A DNA stretch of 64,000 nt, taken from Candidatus Woesearchaeota archaeon. GTDB taxonomy: Archaea > Nanobdellota > Nanobdellia > Woesearchaeales > WJKL01. The stretch is from contig WJJM01000055.1 in NCBI GenBank assembly GCA_014729675.1, forward strand, positions 326-64,325. Reading direction: 5' to 3'. Of this stretch, positions 1 to 19,650 are shown in pieces; positions within the stretch are counted from its first letter, which is position 1; every line of letters begins with the position of its first letter. A program made the translations under genes and the position numbers. The notes beneath the pieces are model-generated. The model saw only the letters and a list, made by a program, of their open reading frames with translations, did no database searches and had not been told where the DNA came from.

Positions 1-98
1 TTCTCATCCTCAACTGCTGTCTCAGTCATGCGCTAATCTCCTTAAAAAATAGGTCAGTAAACGAAAGCTATATAAGTTTTGGATGTTTCCAGAAAAGC

Positions 99-532: not shown

Positions 533-1015
533 TTAGGTGTTGAATAATTCAGGATTCTGGTTCCTGAAGCTGTAGAAGGACTCGCCTATAATGATGTGAT
601 CCTGGAATACGAGTTTGACAGCTTTGGCAGCTTCAGCGATCTCTTCTGTAATTTGAGTATCATTCCTCGAAGGGGAAGAGTTCATCGAAGGATGGTTATG
701 CGCTATGATGAATGAGACAGCGTTTGCTGTCAGCACTCTTCTCAATATTTCTGGGATATCGATGTTCGCGCATCCGTTTCCTCCAGCAAACAGTTCTACA
801 GCTGAAAGCAAAGTGTTCCCTGAATCAAGCAGAAGCAACACAAATATCTCTCTGTGGCTTTCTTTGAGCCATGACAGGCATTCTGCAGCTTCTGCCGCAG
901 AGCATACTATTTTACCTATGCCTTTTGCTCTCATCTGTTTTGTGATCTTTTTCTGTTTCCATTTCAGCTTGAGTTCACATACGTGATCCATCTTTGTCCC
1001 CGAAAAAACATTCAT
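533..1015 (-). CDS. radC: RadC-like JAB/MPN domain protein
   Basis: JAMM-like motif IIAHNHPSMNSSPSRNDTQIT (HxHPxG..S..D) at the C-terminus; size fits short RadC forms. Confidence 0.8.
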   Translation of the reverse strand: MNVFSGTKMDHVCELKLKWKQKKITKQMRAKGIGKIVCSAAEAAECLSWLKESHREIFVLLLLDSGNTLLSAVELFAGGNGCANIDIPEILRRVLTANAVSFIIAHNHPSMNSSPSRNDTQITEEIAEAAKAVKLVFQDHIIIGESFYSFRNQNPELFNT

Positions 1016-1213
1016 TGCAGTCAGAATCGAGATTATGCTGCTTGCATCTCTCGCATACAGGATTCTTGTCTATCCTGCTTAAGGCCGCCTCAAGAAAAGT
1101 GTTTGTTATAGCAGTTATAGGCTTATTCAATATTTGTTTGAGCCTGTACATGGCTCTTACATTCCTTTCGAATATCTGAGGAGAATACATATTGGCTCCT
1201 TTGTTAACTCTGG

Positions 1214-2293
1214 TTAACCTCTTAGGGGCATGAGCAGGGCTTTTCTGCCTGTCTGCTCGTCATCAAAGACAATAGGGGTTGCTTCATCAAAAAAGCGTAT
1301 CGTGTCAAAGCTCATGCTGATTATGTTTGAGAATATTCTTGAGTTCACCTTTAAAGAGATGCTAAAGCTTATGTTCTTGTCTTTCATCACAAAGAAAGCA
1401 TTGTCCTTGCCTTCAACTTTAACCTTGCCTTTGCTGAAGCTCAGCTTTATCGGATAATTTTTGTCATTCACAGGAAGGTCTTCGATGCTTTGCATAAGCA
1501 TCATTTGTGCATCTTCGATTATATCCCATGCAAGCCCATCTCCATTAGGAATGACCTTTGGATAGTCAGGATATGAGCCTAAGACTTCAGTTGAATATAT
1601 GATATTGTTGAATCTCAGATAGACTCTTTCTTCAGTCTTATTTTTATGATATGCTGCCTCAACAGGAGCCTGTGTTACAAGCTCTCTTGTCTTAAGGAAC
1701 TTTGTCAACGGAACAGCAGTCTTTTTCTTTGTGAAGCTTATTTCCATGTCAGCGATGTACATCATCTTGCCGTCTGTCGCGACAATCTTGTTATTCTTTC
1801 CGTCAAAACAGATTGTATTTTTGTTTATGGTTATATCTGAATATTCTTCTGCAAACTCTCCAGCCTGAAGCAGCAGTTCCGGAAAATAGTTATCGTCAAG
1901 ACTCTGCCAGTCCAGCTTTGCAGGAATATTTGGGATATCTTCAGGCGTGATCCTCTTCAGGCTTCTCTGCATCATGATATTATCAGAAGGCATATAGATA
2001 TTGATGTCCTCTTCATCAGACTCGAAATAAAAGATGTCCTGATTCTGCTTTGCCAATGTCTTCAATTCTTCAAGAGATATGCTGAAGCTCCCTTTTCCTT
2101 CTGAATTTTCAGGGAGGTCTTCATATATCTCGGCAAAGCAGCAGGTGTTCTTTGCAACTGCTTTTAATGATCCTTTTACGCTTTGGAAACTGATAAGCTT
2201 TTGATCATCCTTCATGCTCCTGTGTATGATCCTTGATGCAGCTTTTGAGATGTTTTTCAATGTGTCTTTGTGCGTTAATAGGCTCAGGTTCAT
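1214..2293 (-). CDS. DnaN-like sliding clamp (bacterial beta-clamp family), 359 aa
   Basis: Length matches DnaN (~366 aa). Motif KIVATDGKMMYIADM lies at the position of the DnaN LVATDGHRLA motif. The N-terminus is DnaN-like (MNLSLL...KNISKAASRIIHRSMKDDQKLISFQSVKGSLKAVAKN). The neighbour is RadC. Confidence 0.55.
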   Translation of the reverse strand: MNLSLLTHKDTLKNISKAASRIIHRSMKDDQKLISFQSVKGSLKAVAKNTCCFAEIYEDLPENSEGKGSFSISLEELKTLAKQNQDIFYFESDEEDINIYMPSDNIMMQRSLKRITPEDIPNIPAKLDWQSLDDNYFPELLLQAGEFAEEYSDITINKNTICFDGKNNKIVATDGKMMYIADMEISFTKKKTAVPLTKFLKTRELVTQAPVEAAYHKNKTEERVYLRFNNIIYSTEVLGSYPDYPKVIPNGDGLAWDIIEDAQMMLMQSIEDLPVNDKNYPIKLSFSKGKVKVEGKDNAFFVMKDKNISFSISLKVNSRIFSNIISMSFDTIRFFDEATPIVFDDEQTGRKALLMPLRG

Positions 2294-2474
2294 CCTGGAT
2301 TCCTTTCAGAAAAAGGTTGACAATTGTTTTGAGTTAATCACTTGTGCATTTATTTGAAATGTTTTATGAGATGGTGAATGCATACAGATTACAGGTCTTT
2401 CAAAAATAAGCTTGACATCGTTAATTTTGGGTGTAGATTATTCATAAAGACACTTTATTTTAGGAGGGTTTCTG

Positions 2475-2714
2475 ATGTCAAATACATGGAATAATCAGAA
2501 TCACTTTCTTCAGCAGAATCAGGCTAAGAAAGAAACATTTTATACTCATGATAGTTTGACTGGTCAGGATCTTCGGATTGTTAAATCAATACAATCCAAT
2601 CAGATTGATATGTTCATCTCTGATGCTGGAACAAATGGCAGGATTCATGATCACAGCGGAATAGATCTTGTCAATAAAAGAGCCTTCAATGTCAACCGAG
2701 GACAGCAGTTTTAA
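2475..2714 (+). CDS. hypothetical Q/N-rich small protein
   Basis: Strong SD-like taggaggg 7 nt upstream of the ATG; 79 aa; overlaps the 3' end of the convergent 2692-2991 gene. Confidence 0.35.
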   Translation: MSNTWNNQNHFLQQNQAKKETFYTHDSLTGQDLRIVKSIQSNQIDMFISDAGTNGRIHDHSGIDLVNKRAFNVNRGQQF

Positions 2715-2991
2715 GTAGCTTTTTAGCTATTGTCCTTGCGTCTTCTTCAGTTAAATCTGGATTGTCCAGTCTGGCACAACCTATTACCAGGCTGTTTATA
2801 TTTTCTCCCAGATCGAACTTCACAAAGGATTGTGCAATTTCAGCTCCTTCATCCTTGGTGGTTTTTCCATCGGATATATTAACAAGAACTTTCTTCAGAA
2901 GCGTTTTTAATTTATCAGCTTTTTCATCTGAAATATGATAGTCTGAGTTGATTTCATCGAAAAGATGCTCTGCTTGTTTTTTCAATTTCAT
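2692..2991 (-). CDS. hypothetical protein, possibly TerB-like (weak)
   Basis: 99 aa; segment VLVNISDGKTTKDEGAEIAQSF resembles the TerB ADG..E motif; last gene of the 3-gene minus-strand operon headed by the GGDEF-like gene. Confidence 0.4.
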   Translation of the reverse strand: MKLKKQAEHLFDEINSDYHISDEKADKLKTLLKKVLVNISDGKTTKDEGAEIAQSFVKFDLGENINSLVIGCARLDNPDLTEEDARTIAKKLLKTAVLG

Positions 2992-3042
2992 TTTGTAATG
3001 TAAAAAGAATCTGTATTCTCCGACCCTTATCTTTCCGGCATC

Positions 3043-3243
3043 TTATGCAAATTCGTCTCTCATAACATCATGGGAGATAAGCCTACTCTTTGATTTCTTT
3101 CTTGAATCCTCTATCTCGCTTAATACATCTTCAGAAACGATTGATTCGTCTTTGATAAGCGCTTTCAGGTCTTTCATCTCCTTTCTTAGGCCGATTAGGT
3201 CTTCATGTATCTGTTCAAGTGTGATTGCAGCCATGTGTTTCAC
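3043..3243 (-). CDS. small helical protein, 66 aa, unknown function
   Basis: Lies between the GGDEF-like gene and the TerB-like gene on the same strand with short spacers. Confidence 0.4.
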   Translation of the reverse strand: MKHMAAITLEQIHEDLIGLRKEMKDLKALIKDESIVSEDVLSEIEDSRKKSKSRLISHDVMRDEFA

Positions 3244-3290
3244 CTGTTATGTATATGTTCTGAGGGTATATAAAACTTGCTGTTTCAATC

Positions 3291-3821
3291 TTATGATGCT
3301 TTTATTACATCCTTCCTATGATCCGACTTTATTTTCAGCACCTTTTCAGCCAGCTTTGAAGCTTCTCTTTCTAAGTTTTCAGAAGTGTTCCATGTGCCCA
3401 GGGCATAAGTGAATGACAGTTCATTCTTTGTTGCTGCTCTCTTCAGTTTTTCAAGAACAGCTTCTGCATCCTGCTTTTTTGTTCCTGTCACACACAGGAT
3501 CTCGTCCCCTGAGAAGAACTTTCCTATAAAGCAGTCTGATTGCCTTGTTTCTATGGAAAACATGGCTCTGAGGCGATTATTCATGGCCTCATAGCCGTTC
3601 TGCTGGTTAAGGGCATGCAGATTGTCTATATCTATGAAGATGACATGCCTTTTGATACCTCTGGGCTGTTTCCTGGCAAAATTAAGCAGTCCTGACCTGT
3701 TCAATATGCCGTAATTCTCATCAAAACTGAGATTAAGCTCTAATTTTCTGATATCTCGTTCCAATTTCTGAATTTTCTGAGTAAACCCAAAGATTCTTCC
3801 TACTATTGTCGTGAGAGACAT
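3291..3821 (-). CDS. minimal stand-alone GGDEF-like (Palm-domain) nucleotide cyclase, 176 aa, signature SGDEI
   Basis: YGILNRSGLLNFARKQ matches D-x-LTGL-x-NRR. VIFIDIDNLHALNQQNGYEAMNNRLRAMF matches the DhFKxIND..GH..GD block. CFIGKFFSGDEILCV matches RyGGDEF with G-G-D-E-F replaced by S-G-D-E-I. No sensor or partner domain is present. Confidence 0.6.
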   Translation of the reverse strand: MSLTTIVGRIFGFTQKIQKLERDIRKLELNLSFDENYGILNRSGLLNFARKQPRGIKRHVIFIDIDNLHALNQQNGYEAMNNRLRAMFSIETRQSDCFIGKFFSGDEILCVTGTKKQDAEAVLEKLKRAATKNELSFTYALGTWNTSENLEREASKLAEKVLKIKSDHRKDVIKAS

Positions 3822-3894
3822 TCTTGCCTCCTTTCGAACAGAACAGATCGCTTTATGAGTGATTTTTTAAATAAAATCTATATTAAGCCAGATT

Positions 3895-4353
3895 ATGATG
3901 TATAATATAAATGGAGTTTCCATGATTATGACACGTAAGAATTCAGACCTTATTTTTTGCAGCGCTTCTACCAAGGAGAAGCTATATTACCTTGCTATGA
4001 TAGTGCTTAAGTTTAAAATATTGAACAACATATACGTAGCTGCATATATTGGTGGAGGAGCAAGATTGTGGGCGGAGGGATTGAGAACTCATTTCAATGA
4101 CATTGATGTTTGGCTCCCAGGATATCATACAAAGTCACGGTCTTACATTGATAATCAATTAGTTGATGGAGATCCCGATGCTGAAATCCCTCCAAGAATT
4201 CATAATTTTTGCAGGAGAACAGCAACAGAAATTTTTGCTGGTATATATGCCTCTTCCATAGAGCATTTGCTCAATATTAAACTTTTTCTTAATAGAGATA
4301 AGGATCAGAAAGATATATACTTACTCAAGAAATACCTCCAAGAAAGGTCTTAG
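3895..4353 (+). CDS. minimal nucleotidyltransferase (pol-beta fold, MNT-like)
   Basis: YIGGGARLWAEGLRTHFNDIDVW fits hG[GS]x9-13 D[IV]D; 152 aa; divergent from the GGDEF-like operon. Confidence 0.4.
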   Translation: MMYNINGVSMIMTRKNSDLIFCSASTKEKLYYLAMIVLKFKILNNIYVAAYIGGGARLWAEGLRTHFNDIDVWLPGYHTKSRSYIDNQLVDGDPDAEIPPRIHNFCRRTATEIFAGIYASSIEHLLNIKLFLNRDKDQKDIYLLKKYLQERS

Positions 4354-4380
4354 ATATTCACGATTTTTAGGTATGACAAT

Positions 4381-5343
4381 ATGATCAAGGGAATTCTTGT
4401 AGAAGGGGTTGATTGTTCTGGAAAGACAACATTGGTGACAAGACTAAAGACAGATCTCAGTTCATATGGCTGGGATTCTCAGACCTGTTGTCATCGATCA
4501 GAGGATCAATTCGATAGATACCTTCAGATTTATTGCAACTCAGATCGTATCATATTCGACAGAGGTCATTTTAGTGAGATAGTATATGGAGATTTATGGA
4601 GAAAATCTCGCCACTTTCAGCAATGGGAAATTGAATGGCTAAATGAATATGTGCTGATGCATTTCATAGTCATCTGGTGCTATGCCTCAGAAGAATGCCT
4701 GAAAAAACGTTATACCCAGCAAGGTATTAACAGGAAGATAAAGGTCGATCAACTAATTCATATACAGACAGCATTTGAGAATTTATTCCAGCACAATTCA
4801 GTAATCAAATATTGTTCGGATTCTTTCGTCTCGCTAGACAAATTAGTTGATATGATATATTATCTAATCCACCAAGACAATGAAGGGATTAACGAACATG
4901 ACATTATTCCACCATTAGCCAAAGAAGCGTATTGGGGAATTATCGTCCACAGCAATATTTCTTATTTTGAAAAACTAATTGTTGAAGAAATCAAAGTACA
5001 TTTTCCTGATATATCAATTAAGATGCTTTCTAACAAAATAACAGTTGATAGTTTTCTTAAGGAATACTCTTCGACGAAAAGAACAGTATTCATTGGATGC
5101 CTCCCTCATCTTGCCTCCAATGCAAGAACTCTTAATTCTCAAGATGCCACTTTACTTCTAAATGACCTAATAAGACATAAATTTCTATGGATAATCGATG
5201 AGACAAGTAAATGTTCAGAAAATTACCTTAAATTTTATCAAGAGTTGCCATTACATAATAAAATATCTGTCTCTTCAGACAAACCAAATTCAATAAAAAA
5301 TGTAAGAAACCAAATAGCTACGCGTATTAATAGCTTTATTTAA
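4381..5343 (+). CDS. P-loop dNMP/deoxynucleoside kinase-like protein with a ~170-aa C-terminal extension
   Basis: N-terminal GILVEGVDCSGKTTL resembles the thymidylate kinase/dNK Walker A (vFEGiDGSGKTT); 320 aa; directly downstream of the MNT-like gene. Confidence 0.5.
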   Translation: MIKGILVEGVDCSGKTTLVTRLKTDLSSYGWDSQTCCHRSEDQFDRYLQIYCNSDRIIFDRGHFSEIVYGDLWRKSRHFQQWEIEWLNEYVLMHFIVIWCYASEECLKKRYTQQGINRKIKVDQLIHIQTAFENLFQHNSVIKYCSDSFVSLDKLVDMIYYLIHQDNEGINEHDIIPPLAKEAYWGIIVHSNISYFEKLIVEEIKVHFPDISIKMLSNKITVDSFLKEYSSTKRTVFIGCLPHLASNARTLNSQDATLLLNDLIRHKFLWIIDETSKCSENYLKFYQELPLHNKISVSSDKPNSIKNVRNQIATRINSFI

Positions 5344-5398
5344 TCATATAATCGGCTCTTGAACAAGTTCGTTTCTTTCTTTATGCTCATATTAGGTC

Positions 5399-6127
5399 TT
5401 ACGACAGTACTGCACTCTTTATATAAGTGACCTCTTTTTTCAACAAATCCACTTTTGCTGGGCAAGGAACGACACACTCTAAGACAAATGGAGCATATGT
5501 ATTTTTAGACAATTGTGATATATTCCGAAGGTGTAATAAATCGTGTTGAAACAAAAAACCATGATCCGTCATATCTCTTCCCAGAAAAGATATGTGAATT
5601 TCTGAGAGCATATCACGATAATTTCTCAAATAATCTGGTACGCTCATTGACGAGACCGTTAAGGCATGAGCATAGTCGAATGTTAATCTCAAAGAAGGAT
5701 AATTGTCGACAACATTTCTAATTTTATCGATTGTCTCCCAAGGACCTTTCCAGTCATCATTTTCTAATGATGGAGAAATGTCTGGATCTATTATTGATCT
5801 AAGATTATTGATTGTATTTCTGTGAAAAACAACATTCTTTGCTTTTATCAACAAATATAATTCAATAATCTTATCCATTATTTGTTTTGTCTTTCTATTC
5901 CGTTTGTAAGTTATATCCTTCCATGGCGCATGTATCGAATTAAAATTCAATTTTTGAAGATACCTAACATTAGATTTCGATATTTTAAAATCAAGAAGGT
6001 ATTTTGAATATGCAAAAGACATCTCTATACCTTGCGGATTATATCGTTTAATTAATTTAATCATTTTATTTCGATCATCTGTGATTTGATATAGGACTCC
6101 GGTTGATATGCAAATAGGGTTTTTCAT
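5399..6127 (-). CDS. hypothetical protein, possibly a TIM-barrel (xylose-isomerase-like) fold
   Basis: 242-aa ORF with no strong motif; fold guess is weak. Confidence 0.4.
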   Translation of the reverse strand: MKNPICISTGVLYQITDDRNKMIKLIKRYNPQGIEMSFAYSKYLLDFKISKSNVRYLQKLNFNSIHAPWKDITYKRNRKTKQIMDKIIELYLLIKAKNVVFHRNTINNLRSIIDPDISPSLENDDWKGPWETIDKIRNVVDNYPSLRLTFDYAHALTVSSMSVPDYLRNYRDMLSEIHISFLGRDMTDHGFLFQHDLLHLRNISQLSKNTYAPFVLECVVPCPAKVDLLKKEVTYIKSAVLS

Positions 6128-6259
6128 ATAACTGGTAACTATGGTGCAATTTAACTAATTTTCTATTAAAATAGGCATTCACTGCTCCTTTCGCTTTAAA
6201 ATAAAAAAAGGAGCCTGCAAAGGCTCCTTGGTTGAAGATAGGCGGGAGAAACTGCTGTC

Positions 6260-6415
6260 TTATTCTATACTGTTATTGTCTTCATCCTTTATTATGTAGA
6301 TGTTCTCCGGCTGTAATGCTTCGCAGTGCTCTTTTACCTCTTGAGCTTCTGTTAGGTCATCAAATGTTTCTTCCTGCTCAGTCTCAACAGGAATGAATGA
6401 GAGAAGTTTGTACAT
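6260..6415 (-). CDS. tiny acidic protein (51 aa), paralog A
   Basis: MYKLLSFIPVETEQEETFDDLTEAQEVKEHCEALQPENIYIIKDEDNNSIE. Clear paralog of the protein encoded at 7475-7645; the shared block PVE..E..FE...EA.E.KEH.E.L.PENIYII.DED is conserved. Confidence 0.5.
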   Translation of the reverse strand: MYKLLSFIPVETEQEETFDDLTEAQEVKEHCEALQPENIYIIKDEDNNSIE

Positions 6416-6489
6416 GCATGCCTCCTTTCGTAATTACATTATCCGAATAATTGATATAATTGATGTAATGATTATGTTGGGAGATTATT

Positions 6490-7209
6490 ATGATCGAGAT
6501 TGTTCTTTATTTCGCGATATGGAAAATGATCTATGATTCGATGTTTTTGTTTGAAGTATATGCAATACATGGAAGCATCGACAGATACCAAACTCAGTAT
6601 AAAAATGAACTTGGTATTGATAAGAACTCTTTCCCACTGCCAATAAAAAAGATATTGTCGCGCTTTCTGGGATCGATAGTCTTTATTATTTTGGCTAGGG
6701 TCTTAACAATCAGCGTAAAGCAAAAAAATATCTACTCATTGCTGATTGCAGTTTCTTATGTAATGTCTGCTTTCGGTGCTGCGCTTATTACTAATAAGAA
6801 TGAAAGATCTTTGGGCATTATTGATTTCAGTTGGTATTCCATGATGGCAATTGCCTGTGGAGGCCTTATATTCTGCCAGTATCTTCCTGATTATCTCAAT
6901 GTCAATATTCCAGCAGACTTCTCAAAGGTCTATTATATTGCTTATCATAATGAGACTCAGAATCTTTTGCAAAAAACGGTTGACGCGATGTTGATTGTCG
7001 GTTCAGTCCTGGCTGTCTGCATGACAATAATATGGGGGAAAGATATTTGGAGACCAAAAGATGCAGTGGAAAGGCTTCAATATGTAAAAACAGCCTGCAT
7101 GTCAATGAGGATGGTCATAGCATATTTTTCTATATGCCTTGCTGTCTTTTATTGGCTTGGCCTTCCCTTGTACAATAAGATGGTTGTGTTAAGGGAATTT
7201 ATTAAATGA
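6490..7209 (+). CDS. polytopic membrane protein, unknown function
   Basis: 239 aa with multiple hydrophobic segments. Confidence 0.55.
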   Translation: MIEIVLYFAIWKMIYDSMFLFEVYAIHGSIDRYQTQYKNELGIDKNSFPLPIKKILSRFLGSIVFIILARVLTISVKQKNIYSLLIAVSYVMSAFGAALITNKNERSLGIIDFSWYSMMAIACGGLIFCQYLPDYLNVNIPADFSKVYYIAYHNETQNLLQKTVDAMLIVGSVLAVCMTIIWGKDIWRPKDAVERLQYVKTACMSMRMVIAYFSICLAVFYWLGLPLYNKMVVLREFIK

Positions 7210-7443
7210 TTACTTTTCATATTTCAAGATAGCTTCCAATTCAAGAAAATACTTTGAAAGCTCTTCTTTGTTTTTCTCCCATTGCTTAAAACAGTCAGTA
7301 GCTCTTCGGCCAACTCTTGAATCCATGTCAACCTCTCCTATTTCATAGATCTTTTTTGCAATTATTTCCTGGCCTTTTACAAGATGGAGGAGTATCTGAA
7401 GCATGGCTTGTTTTTCTTTTGCCTGTAGTTTGTTATCATCCAT
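7210..7443 (-). CDS. hypothetical 77-aa protein
   Basis: Immediately downstream, on the same strand, of paralog B of the tiny acidic protein. Confidence 0.4.
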   Translation of the reverse strand: MDDNKLQAKEKQAMLQILLHLVKGQEIIAKKIYEIGEVDMDSRVGRRATDCFKQWEKNKEELSKYFLELEAILKYEK

Positions 7444-7474
7444 ATTATCACCTTTCTAAAATTATGATGAAGGG

Positions 7475-7645
7475 TTATAAATAATTTTCTCTTTTACTCA
7501 GGCTGTCTTCATCCATTATTATGTAAATGTTTTCTGGATGTAATGTTTCAAGATGCTCTTTTTCTTCCTCTGCTTCCTGTATCTCCTCAAATGCTTCAGG
7601 ATTCTCAGGTTCAACAGGCATATATGGAATGATTCTGTATGGCAT
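7475..7645 (-). CDS. tiny acidic protein (56 aa), paralog B
   Basis: MPYRIIPYMPVEPENPEAFEEIQEAEEEKEHLETLHPENIYIIMDEDSLSKRENYL. Nucleotide similarity to 6260-6415 is visible. Confidence 0.5.
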   Translation of the reverse strand: MPYRIIPYMPVEPENPEAFEEIQEAEEEKEHLETLHPENIYIIMDEDSLSKRENYL

Positions 7646-7720
7646 TGATCGCTCCTTTCTATTTTAAATAAGTGAGAATTTCGCTGGCGTGGGTTTATCT
7701 ACCGAAAACGCCTGTTTGTG

Positions 7721-7895
7721 TTGAATTCAGGCAGTACACAGCCGGAATCGGCTGAATTTACTTTATCGAATCAACGATAAAGATGCTGTCTCAAATCAAT
7801 GAAACAGTTTTCAAAACATCTGCCAAATCAATGGCATTTTTGCATTGCTTTAATCAAAAAGCAGCTTTGGTTTTGAAACGATTTGTTGAAATCTA
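7721..7895. repeat. 175-bp direct repeat, copy 1 (left boundary of the candidate integrated element)
   Basis: About 95% identical to 12839-13012; the two copies start with ttgaattc[a/g]ggcagtacac and end with gatttgttgaaatcta. Confidence 0.9.
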
Positions 7896-8024
7896 TTCAA
7901 TATATGGGTGGAAAGAAGTTATAAAGATTATGGGGCATGGGTGGTGAAAGATAATGACTCATGTTCATCTAAACTTGATTTTTGACAAAATCATGTTATA
8001 ATTATTATCAAAACAAATAATCGA

Positions 8025-8627
8025 GTGTTTTATAAAGAGGTATTTCCTTCTCTGCATATGTCAGAGAGACATAATAAAGGAGTTAGAAGGCTTATGGGTG
8101 CAGCCTTTCTTGCTATACTGTCGCTTCCATTTATGGATATTCCCTTTAACTACTGCAAATTTCTTTATAACAATAATAAAGTCAGAAAAAACGACAATAA
8201 TATATCATATACTGAAGGTATCGATAAGTGGGGTTTAAAGGGCTACAAGATATTCAGGCGTGACAGCAAAAAAACAAAAGTGCAGCATTTTGAATATGAT
8301 TCATTTTTAACACCAAAAGTAGTGTATTCTGCAACAGACTGCGATAACGATGGTTTAGTGGACATTGTTGATTCTGGCAGTACTGTTCCTTATTTTAGAA
8401 GTAATTTAAATGAACGCAAAGAATATCGCAATAAATTATTAAAGATGTCAATCTTTGGGACACTAAGCAAAAACAAATATAAGAGGGAATTTGGTAAGAT
8501 CTGCCATGATGTCGCTACAGATCCTAATAGGACAAGATATATATCTGAGCTCGAAGAAATATTCAAGAAAGCTGATAATGAGCTTGAACATTTTAATAAG
8601 ATGACTTCATATTCTGATAATAACTGA
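8025..8627 (+). CDS. hypothetical protein with a DxDxDG Ca-binding-like motif
   Basis: DCDNDGLVDIVDSG motif; the true start may be an internal Met (MSERHNK or MGAAFLAIL). Confidence 0.45.
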   Translation: MFYKEVFPSLHMSERHNKGVRRLMGAAFLAILSLPFMDIPFNYCKFLYNNNKVRKNDNNISYTEGIDKWGLKGYKIFRRDSKKTKVQHFEYDSFLTPKVVYSATDCDNDGLVDIVDSGSTVPYFRSNLNERKEYRNKLLKMSIFGTLSKNKYKREFGKICHDVATDPNRTRYISELEEIFKKADNELEHFNKMTSYSDNN

Positions 8628-8659
8628 TGTTATCATTCTTCTTATAGAAAAGGAACACT

Positions 8660-9925
8660 ATGAGTAAATCTATTTTTGGTATTATCTTCCCAGGTATCTT
8701 GCTAATTTTGACTGTTTTGGTTGTTGGAGGTACAATAACAAATATGTCAATCTTTGAGCAAAGAAAAAAGATAACATGCGACCAAATTAGATTACTGATA
8801 TTGAATGTTGCTAAGAACAGATCAGGAGCATATTTTAAGATGTTGGTAGACTTACACGACAATCTTAAAGAAGAAAAAGAAAAGTTGCCAGATGAATATA
8901 AATCACTCTTGGCGGATGCAAAAAAGAATATTGAAGAATATAAGAAATATGATAAAGAAAATAAATATGCTGCCGCTAAACTTTATCGACTTCTTATAGA
9001 TCAGATTGGGCTTTTTAAAGAACGATATCATCGTCTTGGTATTTATTTAGCTGACAAAGCAAAATTAATCGAGAATGAATCAAACTGTCTTGACATAATA
9101 AATAAATCTTTGAAAAATGGTGTCTGGCCATTTGATGAAGATGGTAATATAGAGAGTTCGTTTACAGAGACACCTGAATGGATAAAAAGTATCATTAGAA
9201 AACAGACAAAAAAGTTCAATCCAAATAGCAGTTTGAAAGATGTGTTAAACAAGGAAAATAAAGAATGTAACCAATTTAATTATATGACTGGATTTGGGTG
9301 CATAACTTCTTATTTATATGCACTTGGCAAGGTTAATTTAATATTAGTTTATTACTTATTATGCAGCTTATATGGGGCGATAATTCTCGTTACCTTGGAG
9401 AACAAGAAACCCTTTATTGGGCGGATCCTATTGTATGCAATATCTGGAGGGGCTTGTATGCTATTTTATATAAAAAGCATTCAAGTATTTATTGTAGATA
9501 TGCAGGATAGCACAGGCATAGAATTAGTTTTCACACATCATTTATTGGGGTTACTTGCGTTTATCATAGTGTTGGCCAATCCATTTCAGATAATGAGGTT
9601 TAGATTGAAGAATATAATTAGTGTTTTGACAAAGAATAAAACACTAATTATCCTGTTGGCTGCTTTTTTATTGATCTGCGGATGCAACAGCAATAGGAAA
9701 TCTATACAGGTAAAGAAAAAGAAATTTATTGGCATGAAATCAAAGGAAATAGTAGACGTTGTAGTTCCAGAAAAAGGAAATGAGGATTTAAGAGACAAAA
9801 GAGATCAGGAAATAAGTGAAGAAGAAAAAGCTCTTGATAAAAAGATCGATCAGAGACTTGATGAAGATATAAATAATGCTCCCGAATGGTTGAAACCGCT
9901 CGGAAAGAGTATAAAATCAAAATGA
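8660..9925 (+). CDS. membrane protein with an N-terminal TM, a coiled-coil region and a C-terminal multi-TM domain
   Basis: 421 aa with strong hydrophobic stretches; lysine/glutamate-rich tail. Confidence 0.55.
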   Translation: MSKSIFGIIFPGILLILTVLVVGGTITNMSIFEQRKKITCDQIRLLILNVAKNRSGAYFKMLVDLHDNLKEEKEKLPDEYKSLLADAKKNIEEYKKYDKENKYAAAKLYRLLIDQIGLFKERYHRLGIYLADKAKLIENESNCLDIINKSLKNGVWPFDEDGNIESSFTETPEWIKSIIRKQTKKFNPNSSLKDVLNKENKECNQFNYMTGFGCITSYLYALGKVNLILVYYLLCSLYGAIILVTLENKKPFIGRILLYAISGGACMLFYIKSIQVFIVDMQDSTGIELVFTHHLLGLLAFIIVLANPFQIMRFRLKNIISVLTKNKTLIILLAAFLLICGCNSNRKSIQVKKKKFIGMKSKEIVDVVVPEKGNEDLRDKRDQEISEEEKALDKKIDQRLDEDINNAPEWLKPLGKSIKSK

Positions 9926-9941
9926 CTCAGGGAACAAAAAA

Positions 9942-9965
9942 AGCCCAGAAGGTTAGTTCTGGGCT
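9942..9965 (-). terminator. hairpin followed by a T7 tract on the minus strand; intrinsic-terminator-like, probably terminating the 10022-10654 gene
   Basis: agcccagaa-ggttag-ttctgggct forms a 9-bp stem; a7 on the plus strand reads as U7 on the minus transcript. Confidence 0.45.
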
Positions 9966-9975
9966 TTCAAATGAA

Positions 9976-10029
9976 GAAACTTCTATTAGAAGGGAAACTT
10001 CTATTAGAAGGGAAACTTCTATTAGAAGG
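9976..10029. repeat. 3 x 18-bp perfect tandem repeat gaaacttctattagaagg, each unit containing the palindrome cttcta-t-tagaag
   Basis: Read directly. The last unit overlaps the stop codon of the minus-strand OMP-like gene. The array lies between convergent genes. Confidence 0.9.
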
Positions 10030-10654
10030 TGTAGCCTAATCCAAGAGAAAAATAGACATTGTTTAAAGGATTCCCGATATCAGAAGTCATCGAACTGTTT
10101 GTGGCATTTTCTGACAGTTCCAGTTCAGTACCTCCGGCAGAGATGCCGTATCCCAGCCTCAGGTCAAGATAGAAACTGCTTTTATCCAGTATGGCATAAC
10201 CTGCAAAGATATCGACTGATATGGGCTTGTGCTCTCCTGTAACTGTATAGCCGCTGTTTTTAACTTCTGCTTCTATGCTGGAGCCTGAGATTCCCATGCC
10301 GGCGAATGCCCCAACAGAGAAAACATAAGATCCCCAGACGCTCCAGCTTATTACGCTTGTATCTGCATCAACACCAAATGATTCTACCTCGTCTTCAGCA
10401 TCAGAAGCGATATCTTTCATAAGAAGGCTCCCGACACCGCCGCCGAAATATATCTTGGACTCGCTTTCCATCTCATAATACATCCCTCCTGAAAGGAGGT
10501 CTTGGAGCCTTGTATCATAGCCTCCTGACAGCCAGAAGCCGTATGTTCCTGCATTTGGGTTTTTCTTTTTTTCTTTCTCATCTCCGGAAAGAAGATTTGC
10601 TGAAAAGGTAAATGCAATTAATATCACCAACAGATATCTGCTAAAATTAATCAT
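10022..10654 (-). CDS. bacterial-type outer-membrane beta-barrel-like protein (OmpA/OmpW-like) with a signal peptide
   Basis: N-terminal hydrophobic signal; Gly-rich alternating pattern; C-terminal ...YFSLGLGYTF ending in an aromatic Phe, typical of bacterial OMP beta-barrels. Confidence 0.5.
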   Translation of the reverse strand: MINFSRYLLVILIAFTFSANLLSGDEKEKKKNPNAGTYGFWLSGGYDTRLQDLLSGGMYYEMESESKIYFGGGVGSLLMKDIASDAEDEVESFGVDADTSVISWSVWGSYVFSVGAFAGMGISGSSIEAEVKNSGYTVTGEHKPISVDIFAGYAILDKSSFYLDLRLGYGISAGGTELELSENATNSSMTSDIGNPLNNVYFSLGLGYTF

Positions 10655-10668
10655 AAAGATCCTTTCAA

Positions 10669-11562
10669 TTATTCTTTGGTTAAGGTTATTTCATTGCTGT
10701 AGAACCAGCCTGAATTTCCCATAGCATCACCTGCAAAAACAGCAATCCGTACTTTTTCCCAGGTGTAATAGGCCGATGAGTCTGAATCAAATTGCCGAGA
10801 ACCGGAAAGGGAACCGCTTGATGAAGTTAGGGTGTTGTACTCATTTGCAACAGAGCCCCACTGATCCAATCCATCATAGCGTGGATAATATTGCAGATAT
10901 ACAGAAGCTTCTCCCGGTGTATCTTCCAGAGTGTAGTTAAAGCTGTAACCCAGCTCAATAGAATAATCGCTGGAAGATACAGTTGTGTCAGTTCCTGAAG
11001 CAGAAAGATTAGTGATTGAGAATGACGCTCCTCCGCCACCTCCGCCACCGCTGAAGCTGGTTATATTAAATGATCGGGATTGTTCATGATCTGCTGTTGC
11101 CGGATTTGTATCAGTGGTCTGCAGCTGGAATGTTGAAGAAGTCCACACTCCTTCATCAGGCTTCCTTATCACTTCAAGATAATATGTGGCAGAAGCTTCG
11201 TATTCAATATTCCCAAATACGCATTCATAAGTAGAGGAAGATGTAAAACGTCCTTCATCATCTGATGAAGCAGTTCTGATTCTGTAAGATTTATATAAAT
11301 TTACTCTGTAATGGTAAGTATCTGTATTGTATGAACTGTCAACATTATTCAGCAAGACGGCAAGATCAACTTCAAAGCTTGAACTGCTGCCTGAAGTGCC
11401 GCCATCGGTGGTCCAGTCTGTGCTGACGCCCGGATCTGTAGAAGCAGTTCCAGTGTATCCGCCTGAGTCCTCATCTTCTCCGCATCCAAGAAAAAGCATT
11501 ACAGTACAGCATAACAGCAAGAGAAGGCTGAAATTTACGATATAAGATGTATTTTTCTGCAT
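10669..11562 (-). CDS. secreted lipoprotein-like Ser/Thr/Gly-rich protein
   Basis: Signal peptide followed by LFLGCGED (lipobox-like), a G8 stretch and S/T-rich sequence; upstream in the same operon as the OMP-like gene. Confidence 0.55.
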   Translation of the reverse strand: MQKNTSYIVNFSLLLLLCCTVMLFLGCGEDEDSGGYTGTASTDPGVSTDWTTDGGTSGSSSSFEVDLAVLLNNVDSSYNTDTYHYRVNLYKSYRIRTASSDDEGRFTSSSTYECVFGNIEYEASATYYLEVIRKPDEGVWTSSTFQLQTTDTNPATADHEQSRSFNITSFSGGGGGGGASFSITNLSASGTDTTVSSSDYSIELGYSFNYTLEDTPGEASVYLQYYPRYDGLDQWGSVANEYNTLTSSSGSLSGSRQFDSDSSAYYTWEKVRIAVFAGDAMGNSGWFYSNEITLTKE

Positions 11563-11679
11563 AACTGCTCTCCTAAAAAAATGAGTATTTTCGACAGAAT
11601 AATTTTGAGGGGTACATGCCGGTTCAGTTTGAACTAATCTTCCTCAATCACCTCCTTAAAATAAAAATCCTTTAACAAG

Positions 11680-12435
11680 TTATGTTTGGTATAATCTTTT
11701 CATTGCCTTCTCACCGTCCTTGCTCATGACCTTTGCGTATATTTCAGTTGTTGCGATGCTTGAATGCCCAAGCTGCTGCTGGACAAATCTCAGGTTCCAG
11801 CTGCTAGCCTTGAGCAGATGGGTCGCGAACGTGTGCCTCAGACAGTGTATGCTGTAATTTCTGTTTAGTTTCGCCCTGCTCATGCTTCTCTTGACTGACG
11901 CCTGCAATGCTCTTCTTGTCATGCTCTTTCCGGTCCTGTTGGAATAAAATACAGGAGCATCTTTTCTTAACGGTTCCCCGTTGTCCTGCTTCCAGCTTTT
12001 GAAAGCTTGCAGCGGCTCCTTCAGTTGGTCTCCGCAGATAACAGTCCTTGCCTTGGAAAACTTGCCTTTCCTTACATAGATCTGTATGCAGCTGTTCTTC
12101 TCAGAGATGTCCTGCCATACGAGATTCGTTATCTCCATCACCCTCAATCCGGAATTCAGGGCCAGCTCCACCAAGAACCAGTCATAAACTCGTGATCTGA
12201 GAAGCGAGTTGTCTTTCTTTCTCAGAAGGTTTCTCCTGAGCTTTTTTACCTCTTTGCTGTCCAGATATTTGTCCTGCTGAAGGGTCCACCTGAAGCCTTT
12301 TTTTGTTTTGCTCTGTTTGGGATTGATGCCTGAAACTGCTTCAGCCACCTTACTTCTGATAGATTCAGGAGTGGCTTCATTTCCAATAACAAAAACATTT
12401 ACAGATATCCTGTTTGAAGATTCTTGGTGCAGCAT
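11680..12435 (-). CDS. tyrosine recombinase / integrase (XerC/D-like, short form)
   Basis: C-terminal RHTFATHLL...LGHSSIATTEIYAKV matches the R..H-x-x-R...Y catalytic box. Confidence 0.85.
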   Translation of the reverse strand: MLHQESSNRISVNVFVIGNEATPESIRSKVAEAVSGINPKQSKTKKGFRWTLQQDKYLDSKEVKKLRRNLLRKKDNSLLRSRVYDWFLVELALNSGLRVMEITNLVWQDISEKNSCIQIYVRKGKFSKARTVICGDQLKEPLQAFKSWKQDNGEPLRKDAPVFYSNRTGKSMTRRALQASVKRSMSRAKLNRNYSIHCLRHTFATHLLKASSWNLRFVQQQLGHSSIATTEIYAKVMSKDGEKAMKRLYQT

Positions 12436-12838
12436 TTTTTACCGATTCTGAAACTGGTAGCGGACAGGATTTGCATATTTCATGAGTTATGTGTAATCAC
12501 CCACGCCATGCTGAATTAGCAATACAGCTCTTCATCCTCTTGTCAAAGAACAGATGGGAAATAGAATCATTCCCAACAAATCAGAAATTTGATTTGTGTT
12601 TCCATCTATCAAAAAATATTTATATCAAACCATCTATCCCTAAATATCTCTGAGATCAGAGGTTCAATCCTGCGAAATATATTTGCACATTTCTCATGAA
12701 ATGTGAAAAGGTTATGTAGTTATATTAATCTGTTTTGGGGATTTGTCAACTGTTTTTTATGATCACAAAGTATCATTTCAGGCAAAATAACAGAAATCTG
12801 TATGTTATGGGTGCTTCTATCCAAAATACCCTTCATTT

Positions 12839-13012
12839 TTGAATTCGGGCAGTACACGGCTGGAATCAGCCGAATTTGCTTTATCGAATCAACGATAAAG
12901 ATGCTGTCTCAAATCAATGAAACAGTTTTCAAAACATCTGCCAAATCAATGGCATTTTTGCATGGCTTTAATCAAAAAGCAGCTTTGTTTTGAAACGATT
13001 TGTTGAAATCTA
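12839..13012. repeat. 175-bp direct repeat, copy 2 (right boundary)
   Basis: See copy 1. The ORF-track call 12802-12993 lies inside this repeat and is probably not coding. Confidence 0.9.
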
Positions 13013-13832
13013 ATAAATATTTTAGGTATGAGAATTTATAAAGATGATGAAGCACACATGCATGAATCTATTTCCAGATAAATGCCGAATAAATTAATCT
13101 CCCCCAAACTCGACAAGCGAGTTTTTAGAGTTAATTTAATCCCTTCGCTTTGCTCAGGCTTCGGGCTGTATTCTGCTGCGTGAGTATTGATTTTTGTATT
13201 TTGAAAGAGATAATCATTGCTCTTTCGTGCTTTACGGAATATGACCATCAAAACTTATAATCCTCTTATCTTTCCCCCAAAAATAGGCAGGGGGGATAAG
13301 ATAAGAGGGAGTTGCGACAGCCAGGAAAGAGAAAAGAGGGCATCCTCAGTGTGTTAACGCAGGTTAACTTATCATTCATTTTGCTTATTTAATCATTTGA
13401 AAACAAGCTCATAAACCTTCTTTAATTTCTGAGAACAAAAACTTTCAAGCTGCAAGATCTGAGATGGATTGACATCAGTAAGTGATTGACGTTTGTTTTC
13501 AGACAAAATATCGACGACAAACACATTGCCCACTGTTCAATCACCGTCGATAAATTTATATATATGAGGGTATTTCTATAATAAAGAATGAGCCAATGGG
13601 CGGTTAGACCCAAAGGCTCGGAGAAAACCAAAAATGCCCGACAAAAGACAAATCAGCTCCCCAGAGAGTAATAATTCTGGGAGATATAAAAAGATTTCGG
13701 AAGCAGAGACCAGACAACTACGCGAAGAAAAGATCAACGTAGATCAATGCTGGAGTGATTATCATGCTATCGGCATTGAACTGGACTCAGGAGAGATAGA
13801 TCCAGATAAAACATATTTGGAGGTGTGATGAA

Positions 13833-13997
13833 ATGGAAGAATTAACAGAACGTATGGAATGCGTTGAAGTATGGGTCTGCAGAGTTAATGGAAAAAGATA
13901 TTGCTGCGACTGCGGCAGAGAGATTGCCGAGGAGGATATCGTGGGAAAATCCGGGACATACAGAAAATCGATAAATATATTAAGGGGTGTGCCTTAG
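13833..13997 (+). CDS. possible small Cys-rich (zinc-ribbon-like) protein, 54 aa
   Basis: MEELTERMECVEVWVCRVNGKRYCCDCGREIAEEDIVGKSGTYRKSINILRGVP. Weak; lies in an otherwise non-coding 1.2-kb stretch. Confidence 0.25.
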   Translation: MEELTERMECVEVWVCRVNGKRYCCDCGREIAEEDIVGKSGTYRKSINILRGVP

Positions 13998-14189
13998 ATA
14001 AAAATAAAAACAAAGAAACAGAGTATGGCACTGAAGCCGACTTCTGACGTTATGAATAGGATCTAAGAATTTTAAGCTTAGATATCCATAAGATGGATTA
14101 GATGATACCTTGGATGACATATATATATGCCAATATAAATATAATTTTTAGAAAGATATATAAACCAATATTTACTCATATTTTTTACA

Positions 14190-14774
14190 ATGGATATAAA
14201 AGAAAAACTGGAAAAAGGGTATTTGTCTGCGAGAGCTATTATAGAGGTTGCAGGAAAGCCAAAAGAACATATTGAGAAAGCTATAAAAAGTTATGTTGAA
14301 AAGATAAAGAACGACCCAGATATAGACATCTTAAAATCAGATTTTGCAGAGGTCACAGAAAATGAAGGGATGTTCTCAACTTTTGTAGAGATGGACATAG
14401 TTGTGAAGGACATGCCAAGGTTGATAAGCTTTTGCTTCAATTATATGCCTAGTTCTATAGAAATAAGTGAGCCGCAAGAGATGAAGCTAAACAGCGCAGA
14501 ATTAAGCACAATATTTTCTGACCTGCAGGCAAAGCTGCATGAGGTTGATGTTATAGCAAAGAAGCTAAGGAACGAGAACACAATGCTCAGCAACAATGTC
14601 AACGTTCTTCTTGAGAATATAGTCAGGATAATCATAGCTAATGGGCCAAGGACTACAGAAGAGCTGGCAAGATATACAGGGCTGGAAAAAAATAAGATGC
14701 AGGTTTTCCTGGACAAGTTAGAGAAAGCAGAAAAGCTTGCCAAAGAAGGGGAAAAATACTCCATCAAAAAATGA
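14190..14774 (+). CDS. hypothetical coiled-coil protein upstream of scpB
   Basis: 194 aa; stop overlaps the scpB start (ATGA); no kleisin motif recognised. Confidence 0.5.
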   Translation: MDIKEKLEKGYLSARAIIEVAGKPKEHIEKAIKSYVEKIKNDPDIDILKSDFAEVTENEGMFSTFVEMDIVVKDMPRLISFCFNYMPSSIEISEPQEMKLNSAELSTIFSDLQAKLHEVDVIAKKLRNENTMLSNNVNVLLENIVRIIIANGPRTTEELARYTGLEKNKMQVFLDKLEKAEKLAKEGEKYSIKK

Positions 14775-15628: not shown

Positions 15629-15828
15629 AGGCAAGAGCAAGAGATGCGTCTATTGCGGCAGGAGTTTTTCTATAAATAGAGATAATATTGTTAAGAAAGA
15701 ATAGTGAGTCTATCATTTTATATGTTGAGGGTAAAGATTCCTGGATATAAGAGAGCATTTTGTATTTTTTCAATATTAGAAATAATTAAATCAAAATCAA
15801 TATATAGTTTAAACTTAGGTAATAGATG

Positions 15829-15943
15829 GCTTCTAACCTTAAAATTCAATCTAAGGTATTTCACTTTGTTCAGGACTTTCGATTAAAATTGTCAAATACT
15901 TGAATTCAGACAATACAGAGCCTCTAACCTTAAAATTCAATCG
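15829..15943. repeat. two 23-bp direct repeats (g/c)cttctaaccttaaaattcaatc, 92 bp apart, upstream of gyrA
   Basis: 15829-15851 and 15921-15943 are 21/23 identical. 15899-15921 also resembles the first 23 nt of the 175-bp element repeat (ttgaattcag[a/g]ca[a/g]taca[g/c]agcc). Confidence 0.7.
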
Positions 15944-16015
15944 AAAGTTTTATAAATGAGCTCTAATTCTTTTTATCAAGGAAATTTTCTAAATTTCTGT
16001 TTAATTTACTGAAAA

Positions 16016-19565: not shown

Positions 19566-19650
19566 GGTTGATTCTGTGATATATACAAAAATCACAGTTT
19601 CCCTGGGCATGTTATCACAACCTTTTTAAACGCTTAAATGTTCTTTTTTA

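What the first reader, a model, noticed from the sequence alone, without database searches (positions are those of the whole stretch)
7721..13012. Integrase-bearing ~5.3 kb element bounded by 175-bp direct repeats whose two copies differ by a double compensatory hairpin change
Two ~175-bp direct repeats (7721-7895 and 12839-13012, ~95% identical) flank a tyrosine recombinase and four cargo genes. Inside the repeat, copy 1 has CAGCCG-GAAT-CGGCTG and copy 2 has CGGCTG-GAAT-CAGCCG. Two base pairs have covaried (A:T to G:C and C:G to T:A) so that a perfect 6-bp hairpin is kept in both copies. That suggests selection on a structured RNA or DNA hairpin, perhaps a recombination site or small RNA, rather than a passive target-site duplication. 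175 bp is unusually long for an att duplication. A third, partial copy of the repeat's first ~23 nt lies at 15899-15921 upstream of gyrA. It could be a secondary att-like core.
Basis: seen in the sequence. Interest (0 to 1): 0.75.

Follow-up and report, generated by a model that had tools for sequence, protein, structure and literature searches.

The report
Duplicated structured small-RNA gene beside a recombinase
The two 175-bp repeats are real, but they look like two copies of an undescribed, highly folded small RNA gene (each with its own promoter) in a DPANN archaeon, and the neighbouring "integrase" appears to use a different pair of sites, so the repeats are probably not its attachment sites.

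Summary
Copies at 7721-7895 and 12839-13012 are about 95% identical. The hairpin CAGCCG-GAAT-CGGCTG versus CGGCTG-GAAT-CAGCCG shows two true compensatory pair changes. The window comes from a Woesearchaeota-type archaeon.

The repeated unit is longer than reported, about 230 bp. It carries a TATA box placed exactly as in this genome's SRP RNA, RNase P RNA and tRNA-His genes, followed on the minus strand by a roughly 190-nt sequence. That sequence folds into seven helices, four of them hairpins with different stems and the same loop, UUGAUU. A T-run follows.

The closest available genome has two more copies. Between genomes the unit is 92-98% identical while its flanks are 42-46%. No Rfam family or any searched collection matches it.

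The recombinase is a Xer-like catalytic domain without the N-terminal DNA-binding domain. It has its own two 28-bp dif-like sites in inverted orientation, 212 bp apart, just upstream of its gene. This layout recurs in distant homologues, with spacers that covary. Neither repeat contains such a site.

Best reading: paralogous copies of a new structured small RNA. Integration into that RNA gene remains a live rival. The third partial copy is weak.

The parts
7705..7895 (-). Copy 1 of the candidate small RNA, about 190 nt. The 5' end lies near 7893-7895, the conserved body ends at GAATTC 7723-7728, and the T-run is at 7705-7708.
   Evidence: Seven helices; 98% of pair cells are canonical on this strand.
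7918..7925 (-). TATA box TTTATAAC of copy 1, 22 nt upstream of the conserved 5' end. Unit homology extends to about 7946.
   Evidence: same geometry as the SRP RNA, RNase P RNA and tRNA-His promoters of this window; conserved in all four copies.
12823..13012 (-). Copy 2 of the candidate small RNA. GAATTC is at 12841-12846 and the T-run at 12823-12826.
   Evidence: covariance model 217.6 bits; 92-98% identical to L021 copy A.
13035..13042 (-). TATA box TTTATAAA of copy 2. The surrounding promoter region has diverged from the other three copies.
7739..7754 (-). 3' hairpin H1 of copy 1 (CAGCCG/CGGCUG). The copy 2 equivalent is 12857-12872, with both variable pairs swapped.
   Evidence: A-U to G-C and C-G to U-A. 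Both routes can pass through G.U.
7761..7865 (-). Four hairpins with different stems and the same hexaloop UUGAUU (AATCAA on the plus strand): 7761-7782, 7786-7807, 7821-7836, 7842-7865. The last two are enclosed by the long-range stem 7809-7819 / 7868-7878.
   Evidence: Eight of the 9 TTGATT-loop hairpins in the whole window lie in the two copies; shuffled windows give 1.3 on average.
11680..12435 (-). Tyrosine recombinase, 251 aa. It is a Xer-like catalytic domain only, with no core-binding domain and a 40-50 aa N-terminal extension of its own.
   Evidence: It scores below the cut-off for XerA, XerC/D, integron integrase and invertase models. More than 580 homologues were found, most 205-215 aa.
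12682..12709 (.). S1, a dif-like 11-6-11 site. Read in the sense of the recombinase gene it is TTTTCACATTT CATGAG AAATGTGCAAA.
   Evidence: I2; top score in the window, 28.0; the matrix included this site; 86% conserved in L021.
12470..12497 (.). S2, the second dif-like site, in inverted orientation (spacer CTCATG). It lies 212 bp from S1 and 35 nt upstream of the recombinase start codon.
   Evidence: second score in the window, 17.2; shuffled maxima 8.2-15.5. Same pair and spacing in L021.
15900..15922 (+). Third partial copy (20/23 identical to the repeat's first 23 nt), upstream of the gyrA promoter. Probably chance or a decayed remnant.

Best explanation
The repeat is a self-contained gene for an undescribed structured small RNA of about 190 nt, transcribed from the minus strand.

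Each unit contains:
- an archaeal TATA box about 22 nt upstream of the conserved 5' end;
- a 5' hairpin;
- a three-way junction;
- four hairpins that all display the hexaloop UUGAUU, which contains a YUNR U-turn-type motif;
- a G+C-rich 3' hairpin (H1) that can alternatively pair with the tail;
- a T-run.

The window holds two paralogous copies inside a variable, ORFan-rich region. The double compensatory change in H1 reflects selection on RNA pairing.

Inferred, not shown: the RNA acts through its four identical loops. It would either titrate an RNA-binding protein or form loop-loop contacts with RNAs carrying AAUCAA.

The adjacent recombinase most likely works on its own two inverted dif-like sites (S1 and S2), flipping the roughly 184-bp segment upstream of its gene. 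It probably does not work on the repeats. The two copies therefore arose by duplication or recombination of the unit, not as attL and attR made by this enzyme.
For: Shown:
- Folding z-scores are -4.2 (plus strand) and -4.8 (minus strand).
- A consensus structure of 49 pairs is 98.0% canonical on the minus strand and 95.4% on the plus strand. One pair is G.U in all copies and another in two copies on the minus strand; both are C.A on the plus strand.
- The two H1 pairs changed on both sides.
- The distance from TATA box to 5' end matches the SRP RNA, RNase P RNA and tRNA-His genes of the same window, and a T4 run follows all copies.
- Hairpins with a TTGATT loop are confined to the units.
- Two further copies, A and B, occur in the closest genome (L021).
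- Between genomes the unit is 92-98% identical, flanks 42-46%, and the recombinase gene 50-90%.
- The three substitutions fixed between the genomes fall in linkers or give G.U.
- No S1/S2-like site lies in or near the repeats, and S1 and S2 are the only outliers in 64 kb.
- The inverted S1/S2 layout recurs in L021, L023, L025, L022 and L162. Spacers differ between loci but stay reverse-complementary within each locus. Only 1 of 300 shuffles gave such a pair.
Against: - There is no expression data.
- Only four copies from two related genomes are known, so covariation rests on one hairpin. The shuffle control is weak (34/500).
- The strand call rests on 6 pair cells plus promoter geometry. The TATA box is nearly palindromic and also resembles a sigma-70 -35 box.
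- A T5 run lies inside the RNA.
- The alternative tail helix has an A.C mismatch in copy A on the minus strand.
- All four copies lie within 6 kb of the recombinase gene, and copies c2 and A sit directly upstream of it. That is the classical layout of an RNA gene followed by an integrase.
- Copy A looks like the left part of c2 joined to the right part of c1, as an attP would.
- No homologue was found anywhere else, so function is pure inference.
Confidence: 0.55

Rival explanations
1. Classical integration into an RNA gene. A 5.1-kb element (recombinase module, four genes and its own copy of the unit) integrated into a resident copy of the small-RNA gene, as elements do at tRNA genes. c2 would combine the host promoter side with the element's 3' side. 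c1 would combine the element's promoter side with the displaced host 3' side.
For: - The recombinase gene lies directly downstream of a complete unit in both genomes.
- The c2 and A left flanks are orthologous and share G at the two tail positions where c1 has A.
- The promoter side of c1 resembles A and B, whereas that of c2 does not.
- All copies share a sharp 3' boundary at GAATTY.
- An identical bacterial homologue (P0049) is found in at least 3 different upstream contexts, so this family can be mobile.
Against: - No empty site was found.
- No recombinase-type site lies in the unit.
- Each hairpin is self-consistent, so the crossover cannot be in its loop.
- H1 of A is of the c1 type.
- In L021 two copies bracket a block without a recombinase.
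- The presumed host flank 13060-14146 is itself not syntenic with the closest genome.
- The repeat includes a whole promoter, which an att duplication does not need.
Confidence: 0.25
2. A DNA-level structured site. The unit would work as folded single-stranded DNA or as a cassette-associated recombination site, like an integron attC or a single-strand origin. Gene blocks would be gained and lost at the GAATTC end of each unit.
For: - Units separate different gene blocks in both genomes and all point toward the recombinase.
- The common boundary is at GAATTY.
- B is flanked by AAATTCCC on both sides.
- Hairpins with conserved loops are typical of attC and sso elements (background knowledge).
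Against: - The recombinase lacks the integron-integrase insertion and scores 94.5 against a cut-off of 265.
- There is no inverse-core pair.
- There is no Rep gene.
- The unit carries a well-placed promoter and T-run, which an ssDNA site does not need.
- Copies are 92-98% identical rather than conserved in structure only.
Confidence: 0.08
3. Ordinary duplicated intergenic DNA or a promoter region with no function of its own. The hairpin swap would be a chance or template-switch event.
For: - Only two genomes are available.
- The shuffle control for covariation is not decisive.
Against: - The unit is far more conserved than its flanks and than the neighbouring coding gene.
- Four hairpins with different stems share one loop.
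- The fold z-score is below -4.
- All five clustered changes keep pairing.
Confidence: 0.07

Closest known systems
tRNA/tmRNA-gene integration sites of genomic islands and archaeal integrative elements
   Same: A structured RNA gene lies immediately upstream of a tyrosine recombinase gene. Direct repeats of RNA-gene sequence bracket the recombinase and its cargo.
   Different: - The repeat is the whole gene plus promoter (about 230 bp), not a 3' fragment.
- The RNA is not a tRNA or any Rfam family.
- The recombinase has separate cognate-looking sites.
- No empty site is known.
Protein-titrating small RNAs with repeated hairpin loops (CsrB/RsmZ type), and antisense RNAs with YUNR U-turn loops
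   Same: Several hairpins with unrelated stems display one identical short loop motif. UUGA fits YUNR.
   Different: - The loop motif is UUGAUU, not GGA.
- No partner protein or target is known.
- CsrA is not an archaeal protein.
- This is a resemblance in design only.
FimB/FimE-type tyrosine invertases and invertible promoters (invertons)
   Same: A short recombinase without the N-terminal domain sits next to a short segment bounded by inverted recombination sites. Downstream genes encode secreted or surface proteins.
   Different: - Sequence similarity to the invertase models is weak (45.7 bits against a cut-off of 221).
- The sites are 28-bp dif-like 11-6-11 sites.
- The segment lies upstream of the recombinase gene itself.
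- Inversion was not observed.
Xer/dif (XerA in archaea)
   Same: XerA gives the best family similarity of the catalytic domain. The site architecture is 11-6-11.
   Different: - There is no core-binding domain.
- The score is 122.8 against a cut-off of 220.
- There are two inverted sites next to the gene rather than one chromosomal dif.
Integron attC cassettes; IS110 bridge RNA
   Same: A structured repeat of about 175 nt lies next to a recombinase, and gene blocks are separated by the repeat.
   Different: - It is not an IntI-type enzyme and has no attC core pair.
- It is not a DEDD/IS110 recombinase.
- The RNA is separated from the recombinase module by a non-conserved spacer and a separate promoter-like region.

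Membership tests
Integrated element bounded by att repeats of its own integrase | Tyrosine recombinase with catalytic residues inside the repeat-bounded segment | tested here: met
   Pfam PF00589, E=2e-32. The HxxR and GHSSIATTEIY motifs are present.
Integrated element bounded by att repeats of its own integrase | Recombinase core-type sites inside the repeats | tested here: not met
   The only sites of the family type in 64 kb are S1 and S2, outside the repeats.
Integrated element bounded by att repeats of its own integrase | Empty site or excised form in related genomes or reads | tested here: inconclusive
   The closest genome (L001, L021) gives no empty site. Synteny starts at 14146. L021 has two units around a block without a recombinase. 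Read data are not available.
Rfam RNA families | Match to a covariance model | tested here: not met
   There was no hit at gathering threshold. At E up to 5 only noise appeared.
Structured non-coding RNA gene (generic) | Promoter and terminator signals in the right place | tested here: met
   TATA 8-mer plus 22 nt, as for SRP RNA, RNase P RNA and tRNA-His. A T4-5 run lies 13-45 nt after the unit.
Structured non-coding RNA gene (generic) | Structure conserved with covariation | tested here: inconclusive
   98% of cells are canonical and two pairs changed on both sides, but there are only 4 sequences; 34 of 500 shuffles reach the score.
Structured non-coding RNA gene (generic) | Transcript detected | not testable with these tools
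   No expression data.
Integron (IntI + attC) | IntI-type integrase | tested here: not met
   TIGR02249 scores 94.5 against a cut-off of 265. The protein is 251 aa and only the C-terminal stretch matches.
Integron (IntI + attC) | attC with inverse core RYYYAAC and core GTTRRRY at opposite ends | tested here: not met
   GTTGAAT occurs at the left end and GTTGAAA near the right end in direct, not inverted, orientation.
Tyrosine DNA invertase with inverton | Short recombinase lacking the N-terminal domain, with inverted sites bounding a short adjacent segment | tested here: met
   Spacers covary in 5 independent loci.
Tyrosine DNA invertase with inverton | Both orientations present in a population | tested here: inconclusive
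   Window and L021 have the same orientation. L023 equals L024 and L162 equals L163. Several contigs break at the site.
Tyrosine DNA invertase with inverton | Sequence membership in FimB/FimE models | tested here: not met
   NF007370 scores 45.7 against 221. NF007371 scores 34.4 against 222.
XerA/dif | Full-length XerA with core-binding domain | tested here: not met
   NF040815 scores 122.8 against 220. The match starts at model position 88.
IS110 bridge RNA | DEDD/RuvC-like IS110 recombinase next to the RNA | tested here: not met
   The only recombinase is PF00589.

The most novel reading that the evidence does not exclude
The unit is not just a neighbour but a working partner of the short recombinase, which lacks a DNA-binding domain. 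It could be a structured att or cassette site at which gene blocks are exchanged, an archaeal analogue of attC. Alternatively it could be an RNA cofactor or regulator of the S1/S2 switch. For example, antisense read-through from the invertible segment across copy 2 would create four loop-loop pairing partners.
Probability: 0.08. Interest if true: 0.85.

Novelty: new member of a known kind. Interest (0 to 1): 0.42.

Why it matters
If transcribed, this is a new structured small RNA family in DPANN archaea, a group in which almost no regulatory RNAs are known. Its unusual design of four identical UUGAUU loops points to a multivalent binding function.

The result also corrects a tempting annotation. 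The "integrase" here is a domain-reduced Xer-like enzyme with its own inverted dif-like sites. It belongs to a large family of more than 580 relatives. That family may be self-contained DNA switches placed in front of surface-protein genes, and here one has apparently been carried into an archaeon.

Tried and rejected
- **Rfam.** The gathering-threshold scan and two relaxed scans found no family.
- **tRNA/tmRNA at the repeats.** None.
- **Metagenome scan.** The 4x AATCAA loop pattern was too unspecific. 
- **Genome scan with ScpB.** It returned 19 DPANN loci, none with the unit except the sister contig L021, which was reached through the recombinase.
- **Other collections.** Viral contigs, phage and plasmid collections gave nothing.
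- **Spurious-ORF search.** Searching the protein database with the spurious ORF that lies over the repeat, to catch miscalled homologues, found nothing.
- **Exact look-ups and left-flank search.** Two exact look-ups of window proteins (left-flank 6490-7209 and right-flank 14190-14774) were not on record. A homologue search with the left-flank 239-aa protein returned only itself, so it is an ORFan and gave no empty-site comparison.
- **Cargo annotation.** PHROGs and Pfam gave no virus or plasmid hallmark for the cargo ORFs.
- **DGR template/variable repeat.** Rejected: the differences are not adenine-specific and there is no reverse transcriptase.
- **Crossover in the H1 loop.** Rejected: it would make non-pairing chimeras.
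- **Direct repeat at the synteny break.** A search near 14100 found none.
- **Literature.** Searches for RNA-guided tyrosine recombinases, DPANN small RNAs and archaeal invertons found nothing matching.
Full report

Yes. The sequence at 7721-7895 recurs at 12839-13012 with 7 substitutions and one 1-nt indel. Six of the substitutions lie in the first 40 nt. Copy 1 has CAGCCG-GAAT-CGGCTG and copy 2 has CGGCTG-GAAT-CAGCCG, so two of six base pairs are changed on both sides. The repeats bracket four ORFs without family matches and a PF00589 tyrosine recombinase at 11680-12435, minus strand. Homology continues more weakly for about 50 nt to the right of each copy (D3). The whole window has only these two copies.

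**2. What organism and setting?**

The window carries archaeal SRP RNA and archaeal RNase P RNA. Its ScpB and recombinase match MAGs labelled Woesearchaeota or Nanoarchaeota.

The closest available genome (GCA_964464955.1) is collinear with the window only from 14146 rightwards (L001). Everything to the left of 14146 is ORFan-rich and has no counterpart there. The repeats therefore sit inside a larger variable region. They do not lie at the borders between an island and conserved host DNA.

**3. Anatomy of the repeat.**

Both strands fold much better than shuffles, with z = -4.2 and -4.8.

The consensus fold on the minus strand has seven helices:
- a 5' hairpin;
- a long-range stem enclosing two hairpins;
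- two further hairpins;
- the G+C-rich hairpin H1.

Four hairpins have unrelated stems of 5-8 bp but the same hexaloop, UUGAUU. Eight of the nine such hairpins in 64 kb lie in the two copies; shuffled windows give 1.3 on average. Different stems with one loop argue for a folded single strand, not for repeated double-stranded protein sites.

The minus strand is favoured for two reasons:
- One pair is G.U in all copies and another is G.U in two copies on the minus strand. Both are C.A on the plus strand. Canonical cells are 98.0% on the minus strand against 95.4% on the plus strand.
- A TATA 8-mer (TTTATAAC or TTTATAAA) lies 22 nt upstream of the first conserved base in all copies. This is the geometry of the SRP RNA, RNase P RNA and tRNA-His genes of the same window. 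A T4-5 run follows every copy.

This evidence is modest. The TATA box is nearly palindromic, and a T5 run lies inside the unit.

**4. More copies and conservation.**

The recombinase's closest homologue (70% identity, P0002) lies on another contig of the same sister MAG (L021). That contig has two more units. Copy A is directly upstream of the recombinase, as c2 is. Copy B is 1 kb further away, with a dCTP-deaminase-like gene and a 66-aa gene between them.

Between the two genomes the unit is 92-98% identical. The DNA on either side is 42-46% identical and the recombinase gene is 50-90% identical.

The three differences fixed between the genomes lie in two linkers and in one pair that becomes G.U.

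In copy 2, five transitions cluster in the 3' domain. Four of them swap two H1 pairs. The fifth (U to C in the tail) restores pairing with the same changed base in an alternative helix, AAUUCAG/CUGAAUU. That helix carries an A.C mismatch in copy A, so the evidence for a two-state 3' domain is suggestive only.

Copy B has a 13-nt deletion that removes half of H1.

All copies end at GAATTY on the 3' side. c1, A and B start about 50 nt upstream of the 5' end. The repeated unit is therefore a complete promoter-plus-RNA module.

No homologue was found in any of the following:
- Rfam;
- 19 other DPANN loci;
- 120 metagenome loci;
- viral, phage and plasmid collections;
- the protein database, searched with a spurious ORF that lies over the repeat.

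**5. The recombinase.**

It consists of a Xer-like catalytic domain only. It scores below every curated cut-off (XerA 122.8 against 220, integron integrase 94.5 against 265, invertase 45.7 against 221), and the matches start after the core-binding domain. It has more than 580 relatives, mostly 205-215 aa.

Between copy 2 and its start codon lie two 28-bp sites of 11-6-11 dif-like architecture:
- S1 at 12682-12709: TTTTCACATTT CATGAG AAATGTGCAAA.
- S2 at 12470-12497: the same register in inverted orientation, with spacer CTCATG.

The sites are 212 bp apart. L021 has the same pair at the same spacing. More distant homologues have the same layout with different spacers: L023 CCTACG/CGTAGG, L025 CGTCTG/CAGACG, L022 CTTGGG/CCCAAG, L162 GGTGTG/CACACC. 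In every locus the two spacers are reverse complements of each other. Only one of 300 shuffles gave such a pair.

A position matrix built from these half-sites finds only S1 and S2 in the 64-kb window, and nothing in or beside the repeats. The matrix includes S1 and S2 themselves, so their top ranks are partly circular; the informative result is that no other site exceeds the shuffled maxima.

I infer that the enzyme acts on S1 and S2, most simply by inverting the segment between them. Inversion itself was not observed.

Bacterial relatives can be mobile. One identical 213-aa protein sits behind three different promoter contexts joined at its S1-like site, and several contigs break there.

Genes downstream of the recombinase in the window and in homologous loci encode secreted or surface-type proteins. 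That would fit a phase-variable operon, but this is inference.

**6. Weighing the explanations.**

The RNA-gene reading explains the promoter, the T-run, the fold, the identical loops, the strand asymmetry, the conservation peak and the pattern of substitutions.

The att reading explains why a unit sits directly upstream of the recombinase in both genomes. It also explains why copy A resembles the left part of c2 joined to the right part of c1. It is weakened by four points:
- No recombinase-type site lies in the unit.
- Both junction copies carry a full promoter.
- The A-B pair brackets no recombinase.
- There is no empty site and no syntenic host flank.

The two readings are not exclusive. 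The RNA gene could be an integration target, as tRNA genes are.

I put 0.55 on paralogous RNA genes that are not made by this enzyme, 0.25 on integration into the RNA gene, 0.08 on a DNA-level structured site, and 0.07 on functionless duplication.

**7. The third partial copy.**

The match at 15900-15922 is 20/23 identical. It is at chance level (E = 0.048 in the window; covariance model E about 0.9 over 330 kb). It lies just upstream of the gyrA TATA box and is only weakly kept in the orthologous region of L001. I do not regard it as a secondary att site.

**8. Novelty.**

This is a candidate new small-RNA family of unknown function in a poorly studied archaeal group. It belongs to a known kind of thing. 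It becomes remarkable only if the link to the recombinase proves functional.

Noticed in passing
window 12470-12497 and 12682-12709; L021 6238-6265 and 6450-6477; L023, L025, L022 and L162 upstream of the recombinase genes: A short Xer-like recombinase without a core-binding domain is preceded by two inverted 28-bp dif-like sites, 209-491 bp apart. The 6-bp spacers differ between loci but are always reverse complements within a locus. This looks like a widespread self-contained inversion module with more than 580 relatives.
   Followed up: partly
L148, L149, L151, L153 (and contig ends of L150, L152, L163): One identical 213-aa bacterial homologue (P0049) is joined at its S1-like site to at least three different upstream sequences. 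Each has a sigma-70 promoter about 20 nt before the site. Several contigs stop exactly there, which suggests recombination heterogeneity or mobility.
   Followed up: partly
window 16401/16402 versus L001 7183-8484: gyrA of the sister genome carries a 1.3-kb in-frame insertion (ORF 1247 aa against 813 aa here). It is probably an intein that this genome lacks.
   Followed up: no
window 19553-19619 versus L001 11989-12903: The sister genome has an extra block of about 0.9 kb, with a 272-aa ORF, inserted just upstream of the RNase P RNA gene.
   Followed up: no
window 6260-6415 and 7475-7645 (minus strand); also 6176-6193, 6413-6430, 7643-7660: Two paralogous small acidic proteins (51 and 56 aa, 72% DNA identity) are present. 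A shared upstream motif is repeated three times. The second gene lies directly downstream of repeat copy 1.
   Followed up: no
window 9950-12450: The block holding the recombinase, a lipoprotein-like ORF (10669-11562) and a signal-peptide ORF ending in ...GLGYTF (10022-10654) has 42-43% G+C against 31-36% around it. The C-terminal aromatic motif resembles a bacterial outer-membrane beta-barrel signal, and the recombinase's relatives sit behind sigma-70 promoters. The block may be of bacterial origin.
   Followed up: partly
window 9976-10029: Three perfect tandem copies of an 18-bp unit (GAAACTTCTATTAGAAGG) lie between the convergent gene sets.
   Followed up: no
window 15809-15860 and 15900-15951: Two 52-nt tandem units (77% identical) lie upstream of gyrA. 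Each has a hairpin whose loop contains AUUGAAUU on the minus strand. They give weak hits of the repeat's covariance model (12 and 7 bits).
   Followed up: partly
window 1-14146: The whole left part of the window has no counterpart in the closest genome. It consists mostly of ORFans plus a RadC-like gene (533-1015). It is probably one large variable or acquired region whose left end lies outside the window.
   Followed up: partly
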